Made by a program: the position numbers | Assembly: GCA_016930035.1 (NCBI GenBank) | Contig: JAFGHQ010000042.1 | Span: 16,437-80,436, forward strand | Reading direction: 5' to 3' | DNA from: Gammaproteobacteria bacterium | Lineage (GTDB): Bacteria; Pseudomonadota; Gammaproteobacteria; UBA12402 | Length of the DNA: 64,000 nucleotides | Shown: piece by piece, positions 42,001 to 57,000 of the stretch | How positions within the stretch are numbered: position 1 is the stretch's first letter | Layout of the letters: every line of letters starts with the position of its first letter

Positions 42001-45000
42001 CAAGATTATCTTTGACCTTTACTTCTGTCACGTTTGGATAATCTGCGTTTAATCTGATTGCTTTTTTCAACCCTTTTTGTTTTATGAATGTTCGTAAAGA
42101 ACGAAGCGTTCCCGTTTTGCCTGCTTTAACTTCGACCGGAATAATCTGGGTATCTTTCTGAATGAGATAATCGATCTCTGCCTCAGAACTTTTTTTCTCA
42201 GATACCCAGTAATGTAGCCTTGGGTCCACATAATACGGTTGAATAACTCGTAATAATTGTCCAACTAATTGCTCAGCGATACCACCTTCATTTACTAGTT
42301 TAATTGTATCAACTATGCTTTGATCAGAAAACGATAATCCCATTGCGGCGGATACTAAACCTACATCAAGAAATATCACTTTGAATATATTTTCTTTTAT
42401 TTCAGCATTTAAAGGAATTCCATTTGCGGAACAACTCCAAACCTTGTGGCAAATCCTCGCTTTGCATAATAAATTAAGCGCCTTTTTTAACGGTTCAAAA
42501 CGAATATCTTTATTCACAAAACTATACTTGAATTTTTTTCCAATCAACAAAGGAATGGCTCTCAATATTTCATCTAATCGTTCAACGGGAATACGTTTTG
42601 CATATTTTGAAAAATCATCCCGATAGGTTGCCAAAATATTTTGATGAATTTCATTAATTTGCAGCAATGATTGATTTTTGACCCAACTATCTACAGCGGC
42701 AGGCATTCCCCCTACTAATAAATATTCTCTCAAAAATTGCCAAAGCCGCTCATGAATCGCCTCAGGTATTTCTTCGCTCAGATCATAACGTGACAAAAAT
42801 TTATGAAGTTGGTTTTGGCCTTTTGCTAACAAAAATTCTTCAAATGACATGGGCTCCAAATACATATATTGAATTCTGCCCACTGGCATACTAAATTCGT
42901 GATCATTTAATGCAAAATCTAAAAGAGAACCCGTTGCCACAACTGCTAGCTCTGGTTTTTCTTCGGCAAACCAACGTAATTTGGCTAGCAATTCTGGGGC
43001 CGCTTGAATTTCATCTAAAAAAAGTAATGCTTTTTCTGGAATTATTTCTCGATTCAAATATGATTCAAGTCTAATTAAAATTTTTTCCGGATCATTATCT
43101 TTAAATAGTGTTTTTAACCGAAAATCTCTTTCAAAATTAAGCTCTAAAAGATCAAGCTTTAATTGAAAAGCCAAATTCCGAACCACCCAAGTTTTACCTA
43201 CTTGGCGCGCACCTCGAATAATAAGCGGTTTTCGATCGGATTGCCTTATCCAAGCCTTTAATTTTTCTAAGATTTTTCTATTCATGTCGACTCCTTCTTT
43301 AGATTAATGTTAACATGATTTTAGAAAAAATCAACATTTCGGCGTTAAAATTAGGGGTAATTTTAACGTGCTTTACGTTAAAATTAGGGGTAATTTTAAC
43401 ATCGGATCAAGCCCCATACTTAACCAGAATACCTTAAGGAGCTGTTGAAATCTGCCTGTTAGTCATCCTGAACTTGATTCAGGATCCAGTAAAAACAAAG
43501 ACTTATAGTCTTTGTTTTTTTGAAAAAGTGCGGATTTCAACAGCCCCCTTAACAGAAACTTATGCGAAGCATTTTTTTATCAAGTGTCATTGATTTATTT
43601 CTTTGCTTCCCAAATTTCAGGTTCCATGTCCCCCATGCTCCAATATTCTACTCGATAGGGCTTTACTATCACCACGGCATAATTAGGATTATCAGGAGTT
43701 TGAAAAAACTGAGCTATCTCGGGATTCCAAAAAGCCTCTCGCTCGGCTTTATCTTGAGTAACAGTAGCGCGCCCCTGGATTTGTATATAATCTTTCCAAT
43801 TTTTTGGATCCGTGACCCCGCATGTTAAATGCACCTCGGGATTTTTTTGAATTTGTTTGACTTTCCTAGAACTTATAAAAGTAGAAAACCGAATCGTCAT
43901 GTCATCGGACACAGCACCCGACACATAACGCACCCAAGGTTTATTGTCCTCGGTAACCGTTGCAAAGCTCACCACTTCTGATTGTTTGATCAATTGAATG
44001 ATCTTATCTTTTAACATCATAAAACACCTCTGTTATAACAATTTAATAACTTCCGCAAAAAAACTCCTATCGTACGGACAGGTCGCGACCTGTCTATACA
44101 AGGGGCTCTTGGGATCTGAATTTTTTTACAAAATCAAAGATTATAAATCTTTGATTTTTATTCGTCTCATCCAGGAGACTCTCGAGCTCGCCGCTTCCTT
44201 GCTCGTTAAAATTCGTTCCCGACGAATTTTTCTGGATCCCGGATCAAGTCCGGGATGACAAATGTGCGGACCCCAACACCCCCTACAATACTTTTTAATG
44301 TTCTTTCATCCGTTTTGTTTTTTATACGCTTTTAAAACTTCGATCACATAATCAATGTCTGCGGCAGTATGATCGCCATTGATTTGGAAACGAATTTCTT
44401 CAGAACCTTTAGGGACAACTGGGTAATTCAGACCTGTCGCTAAAATCCCGTGATCGGTAAGCCATTGCACAATTTCTGAGGTCTTTTGCGTATCTCTGAC
44501 CATCAGTGGAGTGACAGGATGTGGCCCGGGAATGGTTTCATAGCCATTATCAACTAAACCCTTTTCAAATCGAGCGGTCATCGCTTGGATATGTTTTAAA
44601 ATGCGTAGTCCTTCTTCGCTTTCTACGATATCCAACACTTTGATAGCAGCAGCTGCTTCGCCTACTGTAATAGGATTAGAATAGATGTACATCGGGGCTG
44701 TTTCACGAAGAAAATTAATCACTGCTTTAGACGCAACCACATATCCCCCGTTAACTCCAAACGCTTTCCCAAGTGTACCAATTAAAATATCGACTTTAGC
44801 GCCGGTAACTTCTTCAGTGCCTCTGCCGGTTTTGCCATAGGCACCAACACCATGCGAATCATCCGCAATCGTTGTGACGCCTTCTTCAAATTTATCCTCG
44901 AATTTCTGACATATGTTGACGAATTCTTGAAAAGGACAGTAATCCCCTCTCATCGAAAAAACGCCGTCTGTGATCACGAGACATCGTTTTCCCTGCCCTA

Positions 45001-54000: not shown

Positions 54001-57000
54001 GAGTAACCGTGACTTTAAATCAATACATTAATTCTGCTCACGACGTCCGTAAAACACAATCCACCAATCCTCAAACCTTTGATTCGGGTGAAAAAGGTTA
54101 TTTGGGTTATATTGTTGATGGAAAAATTTTACGTTTTAGAAATATCTTGCCCCGTATCGTGTTTCAAGAACCCAAACAACTACCGAAAGTTTATCTAATT
54201 GAGGCTTATGCAGGAGCTGATGGGGATCTTATACAAACCGCCATTGATCATCAGGCAAAAGGAATTGTGGTGGAAGGATTGGGCGCCGGTAATGTTAATC
54301 AAGCTATGTTTGAAGCGATTAAAGCGGCTTTAAAGAAACATATCGTGGTAATAGTTGCTACTCGTGTATCTAATGGTGGGACGTACCCTGCTTATGGTGG
54401 CCCAGGAGGTGGTGCAACTTTACAAAGATATGGTGCTATTTTATGTGAAAATGCATTATCCGGTCCCAAAGCTCGTATTATGCTTATGTTGGCACTAGCA
54501 ACTTATGGAAATCAGCCAAGCCAATTAGTTAAATTTTTTCATTAATTCCATTAATGCAGCAAATGGAACAGGCGTCAGACACCAAAGTGTTTGACACCAC
54601 TATTTGCTGCATTTGAATTTTTTTATGTTTAGAAAATTATTTGTTGCATTTTTAGTTGGGTTGAGTATTTCAACAAGTTTTGCTGCGGCTCAAGATCCAT
54701 TATATAAAGTAGATTTGCTCGTTTTTACACATATAACGGACCAAGCACTGGCTTCTGAAAATTGGCCCGATGAATTGCTTACCCCTTCTTTACAAAATGT
54801 TGAAGCGCTATCGACTGACCCGAGTGAGCATTACCAATTACTATCTGAAGATCAATTTGGCCTGAAAAATCAAGCCAATCGTTTGACAAAAAACTCAGAT
54901 TATAAAATTATTCTTCAACAATCTTGGGTACAACCGATTTCCAATCAGCACGGGAAATGGGTTCACATTTTCGGCGGACAGAATTTTAATGAAAATAATG
55001 GTACGGACAGGTCGCGACCTGTCCCCATCCCAATAGCTAATAAAGATATTCATTTGGAGGGGCAATCACCTAAATGTGATAGTTATTGGGAACTAAATGG
55101 CAAAATAAAGTTAAGTAAAATAGGCTATTATTTTAATGTATACACACGATTGTATTTGACAGAACCTAAAACGAGTTTAGGAGGCAGCGGTAGCGATGAA
55201 TCACCTATCGGCACTTTTCAGCCCGTTCCTTTTCGAACATTTAAGTTATTCGAGGATCGCAGGACCCCAGTTAATACGCTTAACTACATCGATCATCCAC
55301 TATTCGGCATCTTGTTGAAGATTACTACATGGAATCCAAATACCTCCGGTACGATACAACCTCATCAAACTTAATATCGTAATCCGATAAATTTTCAATC
55401 ACTGCGTAATAGTATTTCTTACCCTCGCTCTCAAATGTGCTCGCCGCGTGAAGATAATGATTCCACTTCTCAACGGGTTGATCCATTTCGGTTTCACCCA
55501 AGAAAAAGGGAATTTTGCGCCGCGCTTTCAATGCTTGTTGTACGTCCGCTGGCGCATCATTGTCCACAGCTATGTGTTCATACCCTTGAACAGATGGTTC
55601 ATCTTCTATGATGAACGCTGAAAAACGTCCTTCAAAATTTAGCATTAAATAGCTGCCTTTTTCATTGACTAAATAATATTCTTTAATATCCCTATCCATG
55701 CATACTTGATGGAATAATTCCATATATCGAGCATTATTTAAGCAACTCCCTTTTTTGGCTAATAAATTAGCCATGATGGGATGCGATAAATCCTGAAAAT
55801 AAGCATGTTGTAAATCATCAATTTTCTGATGCAACGAATTACTAAAATCAGGGTCACGTTTTCTAATGAATTGGTCAATAACCCCTTCATTAAAAGCAGA
55901 AACAGCCAGATCATCTGATGCTTCGCCGGTCATCATGAGTTTTTTGATCGGAAGCCCCTCCAATTCTCTGCAAAATTCAAGACCATTCATTTCAGGCATC
56001 GCATAATCAATCACTACAACAGAAACCTCTTTAAAACGATCGTTGACGTAGATGGTTTGATAGATACGAGAAATATCTACCTCCACTGTGCTATGCGCAT
56101 GTTTTTCGTCAAACTCAAGTTCCGGTTGTTCAGATAAACTGGATAATGCTTCATGAAGGGTTAAAACAGACTTTTGGCCCTGCAAAAGATTGAGCGCTTT
56201 GAGAGGATCCGTGTACATCTCGTAATTTAGCTGACGCGGCAAACTAAGTGCAAGCCCGGTCAAGAAATGCTGACGATCGTCGACAAACATGGCTGTTGAC
56301 GGAAAATAACAAACAGGTAATAACTTTTCCATGATGGATCTCCTTATTGAAAATAACCTTGTAAATCGCCCTTTATATTTTGTGTGCAATCAGCAATAAT
56401 AAATAAAATTTATGGCGTATATATAATCTAGTAGGAGGAGCCTCACAGTTCCTCCTTCTCACACCGCTTGTAAGGACAGGTCGCGACCTATCCCTACAGA
56501 ATAAAATATTTGCCTTCTTACACTTTCGGAAAACTCAAAACAAATTCTGTAAATTTATCTTCTTGTGAATGACAATCAATACTGCCTTTTAGATTTTGCA
56601 TCGCTCGTTTACAAAAGGCAAGTCCAATTCCTGTTCCGCCATGTGTTTGGCTGAAAAAATGATCAAAGACACGCGCTAAATTCTTTGCCGGAATTCCTGC
56701 CCCAGTATCCTTAAAATATAGGCGATTCCATTTGCTACCGGGTTCCAGCCAAATCGTAATCTCTCCTTTCTCCGCTTTAGCAATATAGTAAAATGCATTC
56801 TTTAGCAAGTTAAATAACATGTGAATCACCCACAATTCGTGACTTTGGATCTTAAAATCATGCTTTCGATCCCAATGAATTAAAAGCCGTTCTTTAGGAG
56901 ACATGGGATAGCGCTTTAAAGCCTCATCGATACAAGTCACCATAGAACATATGCCAAAATCTTCCACATCAGCGCGATCCATTTGAATATTCATCAAAAA

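What the first reader, a model, noticed from the sequence alone, without database searches (positions are those of the whole stretch)
44074..56494. 20-bp perfect palindrome GGACAGGTCGCGACCTGTCC: four copies, one inserted in frame inside a coding sequence
Copies lie at 44074, 46595, 55004 and 56473, with extended imperfect symmetry (TAYGGACAGGTCGCGACCTGTCYATACAGGG). Three are intergenic, including one between the acetyl-CoA synthetase gene and tdh that would otherwise be read through by the longest ORF. The copy at 55004-55025 lies inside the secreted-protein gene 54625..55374 and is translated as TDRSRPV without disrupting the frame. The palindrome always translates as DRSRPV in either orientation. 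This suggests either a mini-insertion tolerated in a loop or a protein-binding site (operator-like) reused across loci.
Basis: seen in the sequence. Interest (0 to 1): 0.5.

Follow-up and report, generated by a model that had tools for sequence, protein, structure and literature searches.

The report
Low-copy REP hairpin repeats, one inside a gene
The four palindromes are worn copies of a known small mobile hairpin repeat (a REP element, normally spread by a RAYT/TnpA_REP transposase); one sits harmlessly in a floppy loop of a periplasmic protein, so the finding is real but of a known kind.

Summary
The repeat is real. Four copies of GGACAGGTCGCGACCTGTCC lie at 44076, 46597, 55005 and 56474, against none expected by chance. 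Only the copy at 55005 is a perfect 20-mer; the other three match 19/20.

The same core occurs in at least 119 loci from about 13 phyla. There it extends to a 28-nt palindrome, GTAGGGACAGGTCGCGACCTGTCCCTAC. This is the "double-foot" GTAG-tagged REP described by Quentin et al. 2018 for TnpA_REP subclass 2.4 (RAYT group 4).

In 9 of those loci the REP lies inside or within 170 nt of a RAYT-like gene. In 95 of the 120 best RAYT homologues it is translated in frame as VGTGRDLSL, just after the HUH motif.

The window copies match the 28-mer at 24–26 positions. Their feet are degraded: only 1 of 8 is GTAG. I found no RAYT in the 64 kb.

The CsiV copy encodes TDRSRPV at the start of a length-variable, low-confidence loop. 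The gene is intact on both sides.

The operator reading is not supported. The tolerated mini-insertion reading is supported, though no empty site could be found.

Verdict: a new member of a known kind, of low interest.

The parts
44072..44099 (.). REP copy 1, in the 28-nt register: GTACGGACAGGTCGCGACCTGTCTATAC. It matches the pan-phylum consensus at 25/28; the 20-nt core at 44076-44095 is 19/20. It lies 55 nt upstream of the start of a PNPOx-like gene (44020, - strand) and 210 nt downstream of the stop of an aminotransferase (kbl-like) gene (44306). A MITE-like repeat starts 5 nt away, at 44101.
   Evidence: ssDNA hairpin -6.2 kcal/mol
46593..46620 (.). REP copy 2: ATACGGACAGGTCGCGACCTGTCAATAC (24/28; core 19/20). 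It lies 30 nt after the TGA of the ADP-forming acyl-CoA synthetase-like gene (46647..48764, -) and 38 nt before the ATG (46558) of the SDR-type tdh-like gene.
   Evidence: hairpin -6.2 kcal/mol
46590..46617 (-). Sigma-70 promoter-like match TTGACA-16 nt-TATATT (11 of 12, the best in 43.5-57 kb). REP copy 2 and its degraded feet form it. The same hairpin followed by CGTATATTTT is also flagged as terminator-like. These are consensus matches only; function is inferred.
   Evidence: sequence
55001..55028 (.). REP copy 3: GTACGGACAGGTCGCGACCTGTCCCCAT (25/28; core 20/20). It lies in frame inside the CsiV gene and overlaps codons G126-I135 (G-TDRSRPV-PI).
   Evidence: hairpin -8.1 kcal/mol
54625..55374 (+). 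Host gene of copy 3: a CsiV-family (PF10972) secreted protein of 249 aa, intact on both sides of the REP. The REP sits at the start of a variable, low-confidence loop (residues 123-152).
   Evidence: (100% identical to NCBI MAG protein P0001)
56470..56497 (.). REP copy 4: GTAAGGACAGGTCGCGACCTATCCCTAC (26/28; core 19/20). It is the only copy with an intact foot (CTAC on +, which is GTAG on -). It lies 24 nt after the stop of the PAS histidine kinase gene (56518..58614, -) and 141 nt upstream of the response-regulator ATG (56332).
   Evidence: hairpin -4.8 kcal/mol

Best explanation
The four palindromes are copies of a REP (repetitive extragenic palindrome) of the GTAG-tagged, "double-foot" type. 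The full unit, seen across many phyla, is the 28-nt perfect palindrome GTAGGGACAGGTCGCGACCTGTCCCTAC.

Proposed mechanism:
- Such REPs are non-autonomous hairpin elements.
- On single-stranded DNA they fold into a stem-loop.
- A HUH/Y1 enzyme (RAYT, also called TnpA_REP; here subclass 2.4, RAYT group 4) recognises the stem-loop plus its GTAG foot, cleaves beside it and rejoins the strand, which disperses copies.

What is shown and what is inferred:
- Shown here: the sequence relationship and the physical REP-RAYT association in other genomes.
- Taken from work on group 2 and 3 enzymes: the cleavage chemistry. It has not been tested for subclass 2.4.

In this gammaproteobacterial MAG the family is low-copy and worn. 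The copies keep the 20-nt stem-loop, but 7 of 8 feet have drifted to GTAC, GTAT, GTAA, ATAC or GATG, and no RAYT lies within the 64 kb. I infer that they are old insertions, probably now immobile.
- Three lie in spacers between co-directional genes. Copy 2 may incidentally act as a terminator and/or promoter between the acyl-CoA synthetase-like gene and tdh.
- One landed in frame in a disordered, length-variable loop of CsiV, where it adds about 7-10 residues without breaking the protein.
For: 1. Non-random repeat: 4 copies against 0 in shuffles.
My calculation (5.96e11/4^18) expects about 9. The loci have GC 31-66% and cover about 13 phyla.
3. Conserved feet: the unsearched flanks are GTAGG in 62 of 139 matches, CCTAC in 64 of 139, and both in 25.
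4. RAYT association in other genomes: unsupervised clustering of ORFs near the palindrome found one recurrent family, with motifs PNHIHGIIEI...WQRSFHD...YIxxNP.
 - It matches NCBIfam NF047646 "REP-associated tyrosine transposase" at E 1e-15 to 7e-19.
 - It matches the E. coli TnpA_REP structure 4ER8 at E 3e-4.
 - In 9 of 119 loci the REP lies inside, or within 170 nt of, such a gene or gene fragment.
5. REP inside RAYT genes: 95 of the 120 best of 3424 homologues carry the REP translated in frame (VGTGRDLSL) right after the HUH motif. Several sources name these proteins "REP element-mobilizing transposase RayT".
6. Literature match (Quentin et al. 2018, PMC6006769):
 - Their supplement lists GTAGGGACAGGTCGTGACCTGTCC for Paludibacter ADQ78812.1, 1 nt from this core.
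7. More literature: REPs inside ORFs and downstream of co-directional genes are documented (Di Nocera 2013, PMC3733652). Group 4 flanking 16-mers occur about 14 times per replicon, and the group is rare in Proteobacteria (Bertels 2017).
8. Window copies match the 28-mer at 24-26 of 28 positions and fold as ssDNA hairpins.
9. CsiV: the gene is intact, the region varies in length among homologues, and it is modelled as coil with pLDDT below 50.
Against: - No RAYT gene in the window, by tblastn, six-frame hmmsearch (best E 0.16) or Pfam on the small unassigned ORFs. The rest of the genome was not available.
- Only 1 of 8 feet is GTAG. In the tested group 2 and 3 systems, GTAG mutations, including GTAC, abolish or retarget cleavage (PMC8266576). 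Present mobility is therefore doubtful.
- No empty site in a close relative could be found (best CsiV homologue 53% identical). Insertion into CsiV is inferred, not observed.
- Only four copies are visible, all within 12.4 kb (P about 0.025 for such clustering). Genome-wide copy number is unknown.
- The count of 95 of 120 is biased upward. The query contained the REP peptide and the search is seeded on shared words.
Confidence: 0.85

Rival explanations
1. The palindrome is an operator. A dimeric transcription factor of this organism binds the duplex sequence and co-regulates the downstream genes (PNPOx-like, tdh-kbl, response regulator).
For: Three copies lie 38-141 nt upstream of - strand gene starts. 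The sequence has perfect dyad symmetry. Copy 2 overlaps a promoter-like match.
Against: - The identical 18-28 nt sequence lies beside unrelated genes in at least 119 loci from about 13 phyla.
- Clustering of neighbouring ORFs found no shared regulator or regulon, only RAYT-like genes.
- One copy is inside a coding sequence.
- The sequence matches a catalogued REP.
- The three downstream genes have no obvious common function.
Confidence: 0.03
2. The copies are kept by the host as RNA-level signals rather than being selfish DNA. They would act as intrinsic terminators or 3'-end mRNA-stabilising hairpins for the upstream genes. Copy 2 would also supply a promoter for tdh.
For: - Copies 2 and 4 lie 30 and 24 nt after stop codons of co-directional genes.
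- Copy 2 is flagged both as terminator-like and as the best promoter-like match in the region.
- REPs are reported to lie mostly downstream of ORFs and to act as RNA elements (PMC3733652).
Against: - Only copy 2 has a T-rich tail; copies 1, 3 and 4 do not.
- Copy 3 is inside a gene.
- The terminator and promoter scans are consensus matches, with many such hits expected by chance (33 promoter-like sites found against 36.9 expected).
- This reading explains a possible secondary use, not the origin or the cross-phylum identity. It is compatible with the best explanation rather than a replacement for it.
Confidence: 0.1
3. The CsiV stretch TDRSRPV is ancestral coding sequence that merely resembles the intergenic repeat. 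It is not an insertion.
For: No empty-site orthologue was found. The right foot of this copy (CCCCAT) is the most divergent of the four.
Against: - The core is 20/20 identical, and the left foot GTAC matches copy 1.
- The stretch is 65% GC in a gene of about 38% GC.
- None of 11 homologues has these residues; the region is an indel hotspot.
- The same DNA is translated in two different frames inside RAYT genes elsewhere, which shows that it enters ORFs as DNA.
Confidence: 0.02

Closest known systems
"Double-foot" REPs cognate to TnpA_REP subclass 2.4 / RAYT group 4 (Quentin et al. 2018, PMC6006769). Example: the Paludibacter propionicigenes REP GTAGGGACAGGTCGTGACCTGTCC next to ADQ78812.1.
   Same: - The 8-bp stem GGACAGGT/ACCTGTCC is the same, and the loop differs by 1 nt (CGCG against CGTG).
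- Across other genomes the element carries GTAG...CTAC feet.
- It lies inside and beside RAYT genes with the subclass 2.4 motifs.
- It tolerates in-frame insertion in ORFs.
   Different: - In the window 7 of 8 feet are not GT[AG]G.
- No tnpA_REP lies within 64 kb.
- The host is a low-GC gammaproteobacterial MAG, a group in which RAYT group 4 is reported to be rare.
GTAG-tagged REP superfamily, including REPs located inside ORFs (Di Nocera et al. 2013, PMC3733652)
   Same: Short palindromic units. They lie mostly between co-directional or convergent genes and downstream of ORFs. Occasional in-frame copies inside genes are argued to sit in linkers or loops.
   Different: This sequence family is not among the 24 GTAG families found in that paper's text (no match for the core). 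Classical families have a foot at one end only and reach hundreds of copies per genome.
E. coli REP/BIME with TnpA_REP (RAYT group 2; structure 4ER8), and the group 3 systems of Stenotrophomonas and Marinomonas
   Same: A HUH/Y1 enzyme acts on a folded ssDNA hairpin with a GTAG guide tetranucleotide. The RAYT-like proteins found here align to 4ER8 across the HUH and Tyr regions.
   Different: The E. coli REP has a bulged stem and a single foot, and the enzyme belongs to another subclass (DHLH / WE / YIHYNP). No biochemistry exists for subclass 2.4.
Rickettsia palindromic elements (RPE)
   Same: Palindromic repeats inserted in frame into protein-coding genes without destroying them. This rests on my own knowledge and on a citation in PMC3733652.
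   Different: RPEs are roughly 100-150 bp, add whole peptide segments, are confined to Rickettsia and have no known RAYT partner. The unit here is 28 nt.
REPINs of Pseudomonas (Bertels and Rainey 2011, PMC3116915)
   Same: Non-autonomous elements dependent on a single-copy RAYT.
   Different: A REPIN is two inverted REPs with a spacer, is vertically inherited and is lineage-specific. Here the unit is a single self-complementary hairpin whose sequence is shared across phyla.

Membership tests
REP, GTAG-tagged superfamily (Di Nocera 2013) | A 20-40 bp palindromic unit able to fold into a stem-loop | tested here: met
   The 20-nt core has a 7-8 bp stem and a 4-nt loop. ssDNA folding energies are -4.8 to -8.1 kcal/mol for the window copies and -12.2 (z -6.8) for the 28-nt consensus.
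REP, GTAG-tagged superfamily (Di Nocera 2013) | A GTAG tetranucleotide at the foot of the hairpin | tested here: inconclusive
   Family-wide the feature is present: GTAGG on the left in 62 of 139 matches and CCTAC on the right in 64 of 139. In the window only copy 4 keeps one GTAG foot. The others read GTAC, ATAC, GTAC and GTAA on the left, and GTAT, GTAT and GATG on the right when read on the - strand. The window copies are therefore foot-degraded derivatives.
REP, GTAG-tagged superfamily (Di Nocera 2013) | Multi-copy and dispersed in the genome | tested here: inconclusive
   There are 4 copies in 64 kb, all within 12.4 kb. The rest of the MAG could not be read. Other genomes show at least 5-7 separate loci each (Pontibacter mucosus, OZ243042.1), and the scan was truncated.
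REP, GTAG-tagged superfamily (Di Nocera 2013) | Mostly extragenic, downstream of ORFs, between co-directional or convergent genes | tested here: met
   Three of four copies lie in spacers between - strand genes, 24-210 nt after a stop codon.
Double-foot REP of TnpA_REP subclass 2.4 (Quentin 2018) | The same sequence as REPs that flank, or lie inside, a subclass 2.4 tnpA_REP gene | tested here: met
   The 20-nt core is identical to REPs inside or at most 170 nt from RAYT-like genes in L020, L022, L032, L039, L062, L117, L102 and L115, with a variant in L071. It is 1 nt from the published Paludibacter REP.
Double-foot REP of TnpA_REP subclass 2.4 (Quentin 2018) | 5' GT[AG]G and 3' C[TC]AC at both ends | tested here: inconclusive
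   Both feet are intact in 25 of 139 copies elsewhere. No window copy has both. The window copies match the 28-mer at 24-26 of 28 positions.
Double-foot REP of TnpA_REP subclass 2.4 (Quentin 2018) | A cognate tnpA_REP (RAYT) gene in the same genome | not testable with these tools
   The window was tested and has none: tblastn, six-frame hmmsearch (best E 0.16) and Pfam on small ORFs. Only 64 kb of the MAG, plus 2.3 kb from L121, was accessible.
TnpA_REP subclass 2.4 / RAYT group 4 (applies to the proteins found next to the REP in other genomes) | HuH motif NH[IFV]H, a WQ motif, a Tyr motif YIxNNP, and a variable insert between HuH and Y | tested here: met
   The motifs seen are PNHIHG or PNHVHG, WQRSFHD, and DYIRDNP, NYIIDNP or CYIDENP, with a variable insert after EINR. 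NF047646 scores 58-68 bits, below its 80-bit cutoff. Pfam Y1_Tnp is only weak. 4ER8 matches at E 3e-4.
Transcription-factor operator | Confined to promoter regions of one regulon, in taxa that have the regulator | tested here: not met
   The sequence is found in about 13 phyla next to unrelated genes, with no recurrent neighbouring regulator. One copy is inside a coding sequence.
Intrinsic (Rho-independent) terminator | A GC-rich hairpin followed directly by a U-tract | tested here: not met
   Only copy 2, on the - strand, passes the terminator-like scan. Copies 1, 3 and 4 lack a T-run next to the stem.

The most novel reading that the evidence does not exclude
One sequence-invariant 28-nt double-foot REP has spread across about 13 bacterial phyla, over a GC range of 31-66%. 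It would have spread because subclass 2.4 RAYT genes carry a master copy in frame inside their own ORF, so enzyme and substrate travel together as one horizontally transmissible unit. Supporting this, the REP is more conserved (28/28) than the protein (38-59% identity). This gammaproteobacterial MAG would then show the end state: orphan copies with mutated feet. One would have been co-opted as a near-consensus sigma-70 promoter and terminator between the acyl-CoA synthetase-like gene and tdh, and one fixed as a loop insert in CsiV.
Probability: 0.25. Interest if true: 0.5.

Novelty: new member of a known kind. Interest (0 to 1): 0.22.

Why it matters
- Annotation: the repeat carries no stop codon in the window copies, so it inflates ORFs (45608..46663; 43998..44258) and adds a foreign peptide to CsiV. 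Recognising it as a REP prevents wrong start calls and wrong "operator" inferences.
- Biology: it adds a low-GC gammaproteobacterial host to a REP/RAYT group described mainly from Bacteroidota and Cyanobacteria.
- Open question: the fact that the REP is more conserved than its transposase across phyla is a modest lead on how REP-RAYT pairs move between lineages.
- None of this changes the current understanding of REPs.

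Tried and rejected
- Orthologue test for the 7-residue insert: the best non-self CsiV homologue is 53% identical, and the region does not align. The test was not decisive.
- RAYT in the window: none found with tblastn using three subclass 2.4 proteins, with a six-frame hmmsearch using a 6-sequence HMM, or with Pfam on 10 small or unassigned ORFs.
- Extending the contig through the look-up of encoding contigs: this returned only shorter Logan contigs from SRR13394437 and added 2.3 kb.
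- Rfam at gathering thresholds over the whole window: only three tRNAs, and nothing at the palindromes.
- More degenerate copies or half-copies in the window: none beyond the four, allowing up to 6 mismatches to the 28-mer.
- A conserved neighbouring gene other than RAYT in 119 loci: none.
- Literature search for the exact DNA or peptide strings: no paper in the main-text search. One near-identical REP appears in a supplement of PMC6006769.
- Metagenome scan for the window's foot variant (TACGG...CNATAC): 3 contigs, none with a RAYT and none related to the window.
- Viral contigs: 7 carry the REP, none with a RAYT.
- Rejected: CRISPR (no spacers; the arrays in L024 are plain tandem repeats), DNA uptake sequence, and assembly artefact (the independent assembly is identical).

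Full report
**Observation**

A search for GGACAGGTCGCGACCTGTCC with up to 3 mismatches finds exactly four sites, at 44076, 46597, 55005 and 56474. No dinucleotide-preserving shuffle gives any.

Only 55005-55024 is a perfect 20-mer. Its extended consensus holds for copies 1 and 2 only.

The window has about 37% GC. It is identical to a contig of an NCBI MAG labelled "Gammaproteobacteria bacterium", with locus tags JW855_. An independent Logan assembly of run SRR13394437 is 100% identical over 50693-64000, including the copy inside the gene.

**Gene context**

| Copy | Position relative to genes |
|---|---|
| 1 | 210 nt after the stop of a class I/II aminotransferase (kbl-like, 44306..45538, -); 55 nt before a PNPOx-like gene (start 44020); 5 nt from the end of a MITE-like repeat (44101-44283) |
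| 2 | 30 nt after the TGA of an ADP-forming acyl-CoA synthetase-like gene (46647..48764, -); 38 nt before the ATG (46558) of an SDR-type tdh-like gene |
| 3 | Inside the CsiV-family gene 54625..55374 |
| 4 | 24 nt after the stop of a PAS histidine kinase (56518..58614, -); 141 nt before the response-regulator ATG (56332) |

For copy 3, Pfam PF10972 matches at E 4e-27 in one stretch across residues 10-234, and the copy is translated as G-TDRSRPV-PI. The window copies carry no stop codon in any frame, which is why they lengthen spurious ORFs.

**What it is**

I calculate about 9 expected for a random 18-mer palindrome in 596 Gb.

The loci come from isolates (many Pontibacter, Flavobacterium, Rufibacter) and from MAGs. 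These include Bacteroidota, seven CPR/Patescibacteria lineages, Nitrospinota, Omnitrophota, Chloroflexota, Bacillota, Fibrobacterota, Spirochaetota, Acidobacteriota/Aminicenantes, Zixibacteria, Ignavibacteria, Chrysiogenales and Gammaproteobacteria. Local GC ranges from 31 to 66%.

The flanks were not part of the query, yet they are conserved. GTAGG lies on the left in 62 of 139 matches, CCTAC on the right in 64, and both in 25. The full unit is therefore the 28-nt perfect palindrome GTAGGGACAGGTCGCGACCTGTCCCTAC. It folds as ssDNA at -12.2 kcal/mol (z -6.8).

A hairpin with a GTAG foot is the defining anatomy of REP elements (Di Nocera et al. 2013, PMC3733652).

**Link to a transposase**

I clustered all ORFs within 2.5 kb of the palindrome in the 119 loci. 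The only recurrent cross-genome family with the palindrome inside it was a protein of about 170-220 aa with motifs PNHIHGIIEI, KIKSLSE..GAYKTT, WQRSFHD and YIxxNP.
- It matches NCBIfam NF047646 "REP-associated tyrosine transposase" at E 1e-15 to 7e-19. The scores of 58-68 bits are below the 80-bit equivalog cutoff.
- It matches the E. coli TnpA_REP structure 4ER8 at E 3e-4. Pfam Y1_Tnp is only marginal.
- tblastn finds this gene, or fragments of it, in 9 of the 119 loci. In each, a REP lies inside the gene or within 170 nt of it. L032 and L039 have both internal and flanking copies.
- In the 5.8-billion-protein collection the L117 protein has 3424 homologues at E ≤ 1e-10. Several sources name them "REP element-mobilizing transposase RayT".
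- In 95 of the best 120, the REP is translated in frame as VGTGRDLSL(Q/P/R) at one site, right after the HUH motif. Tandem partial duplications are common there.
- That count is biased upward, because my query contained the peptide.
- L039 and L022 carry the REP at the same site in another frame (RDRSRPVPT). This shows that the DNA, not the peptide, is the conserved entity.

**Comparison with the literature**

All of this is already described. Quentin, Siguier, Chandler and Fichant (2018, PMC6006769) define TnpA_REP subclass 2.4, which equals RAYT group 4 of Bertels et al.
- Its motifs are NH[IFV]H / WQ / YIxNNP.
- Its REPs are either canonical long or "double foot" (5' GT[AG]G ... C[TC]AC 3').
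- Their supplementary table lists GTAGGGACAGGTCGTGACCTGTCC for Paludibacter propionicigenes ADQ78812.1, one loop nucleotide away from this core.

Bertels et al. 2017 report that group 4 is rare in Proteobacteria. They also report that its flanking 16-mers occur about 14 times per replicon, so these are low-copy families. Di Nocera et al. 2013 document REPs inside ORFs and argue that they sit in linkers or loops.

**State of the window copies**

Against the 28-mer the four copies score 25, 24, 25 and 26 of 28. The stem-loop is kept, but only one of eight feet is GTAG. The rest are GTAC, ATAC, GTAC and GTAA on the left, and GTAT, GTAT and GATG on the right.

A GTAC/GTAT-footed variant also exists elsewhere (L091, L101, L115, L129-L131).

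In the tested group 2 and 3 enzymes the GTAG motif is crucial. GTAC abolishes cleavage in Stenotrophomonas and retargets it in Marinomonas (Corneloup et al. 2021, PMC8266576). Subclass 2.4 has not been tested.

No RAYT is present in the 64 kb. The rest of the MAG was out of reach.

All four copies fall within 12.4 kb of the 64-kb window. Simulation gives P about 0.025 for that much clustering.

My inference is that these are old insertions, probably now immobile. A live system with a retargeted foot is the alternative.

**The copy in CsiV**

Among 11 homologues (23-53% identical) the stretch between the conserved GGQxY/F and YWELNGKI blocks varies from about 4 to about 50 residues, and none has TDRSRPV.

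An AlphaFold2 model (12-sequence alignment, mean pLDDT 78.6) places residues 123-152 in coil between two confident strands, with pLDDT below 50 for 132-150. The REP-encoded residues 127-133 open that loop.

Conserved sequence continues in frame on both sides. This supports a tolerated in-frame insertion. No empty site could be found to prove it, because the nearest homologue is too distant.

**Possible secondary roles (inference only)**

On the - strand, copy 2 and its mutated feet read TTGACA-16 nt-TATATT. This is the best sigma-70-like match in 43.5-57 kb (11/12), 31 nt upstream of the tdh-like ATG. The same hairpin followed by CGTATATTTT is flagged as terminator-like.

The scan finds no more promoter-like sites than shuffles do (33 against 36.9), so this is a lead, not a result. 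Rfam has nothing at any copy.

**Rivals**

- Operator for a local regulator: rejected, given the cross-phylum distribution beside unrelated genes, the lack of any recurrent regulator, and the copy inside a coding sequence.
- Host-selected terminator or stabiliser: may describe a secondary use of copies 2 and 4, but does not explain origin.
- Ancestral coding sequence in CsiV: contradicted by the 20/20 DNA identity, the GC contrast and the alignment.

**Verdict**

This is a real repeat correctly spotted, with its perfection overstated. It is a worn, low-copy member of a published REP type, the double-foot REP of RAYT group 4 / TnpA_REP subclass 2.4, in an unusual host group. One copy is an in-frame loop insertion of a kind already reported for REPs.

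The one mildly surprising point is that the 28-nt REP is invariant across phyla while its transposase has diverged to 38-59% identity. This fits co-transfer of the enzyme with an internal REP copy.

Noticed in passing
window 99-135, 8182-8218, 10630-10666, 12027-12063, 14827-14863, 20351-20387, 24699-24735, 26095-26131, 27035-27071, 45567-45603 (a weaker relative near 54571-54583): A second, more abundant palindromic repeat family of about 35-37 nt, ATGTAACCTTTGGTGTCWGACACCAAAGGTTACAT, with at least 10 copies in 64 kb and no GTAG foot. The copy at 45566-45602, between the kbl-like and tdh-like genes, is the top terminator-like hit (17-bp stem). Its mobilising enzyme, if any, is unknown.
   Followed up: no
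window 9424-9531, 16726-16838, 22793-22910, 26889-27019, 31919-32042, 34424-34548, 38296-38403, 43429-43547, 44101-44283: A MITE-like repeat of about 105-185 nt. Its terminal inverted repeats read (A)GGGGCTGTTG..., and it has two internal hairpins (TCATCCTGAACTTGATTCAGGATCC and AAAATCAAAGACTTATAATCTTTGATTTT). Copies are 80-96% alike in both orientations. One copy starts 5 nt after REP copy 1, and at 26889-27019 two copies appear nested.
   Followed up: partly
window 22553-22794 and 37961-38197: Arrays of 28-30-nt tandem repeats (CGCTCCCTCNGAATGACAGCGAGGGCGG) form long inverted repeats, 84-93% complementary. They bracket about 15 kb that holds two very large genes (28431..31892 and 34602..37943). 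This could be an invertible or composite segment.
   Followed up: no
window 5228-5275, 38670-38733, 40421-40468, 50681-50733: Another AT-rich repeat, GCGACAC...TTTTTAATTCTTCATT(T/C)TTAATTTTTAATTA, present in both orientations at gene ends (families D14, I17 and I20).
   Followed up: no
L024 1891-2296 (Bacteroidetes MAG JADKIC010000002.1); L073 4068-4922 (Chitinophagaceae MAG): Here the REP forms tandem arrays. L024 has 8 copies, mostly at a 44-nt period with a constant 16-nt spacer. L073 has 7 copies at alternating spacings of 77 and 202 nt (a 279-nt period). These are plain tandem repeats, not CRISPR.
   Followed up: no
L001, L028, L036, L053, L057, L072, L078-L080, L100 (Pontibacter spp.): In Pontibacter the REP has one foot only. 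It is embedded in a larger conserved element bounded by GTTCTATAGTT... / ...ACTATAGCCACGAGAAA, so the REP has been captured in, or has nucleated, a longer repeat.
   Followed up: no
proteins P0015-P0134 (RAYT homologues): The in-frame REP segment after the HUH motif often carries tandem partial duplications of half-hairpins, for example RDLSVRDLPVRDLSVYDLSLP and repeated VGTGR. This suggests slippage or repeated enzyme action at that spot. Protein lengths range from 138 to 278 aa.
   Followed up: partly
L122-L128 (IMG/VR contigs): Seven predicted viral contigs carry the full double-foot REP, and none has a RAYT-like gene. This is a possible route for transfer between lineages, or these are misclassified host fragments.
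   Followed up: partly
window 58687-63723 (+) and 39464-40240 (-): A 1678-aa two-module NRPS (AMP-binding, PP-binding, Condensation, AMP-binding, PP-binding) with an internal 290-nt duplication at 76% identity (58711-59000 and 61891-62180). Separately, there is an HTH plus SocA/Panacea antitoxin-like gene.
   Followed up: no
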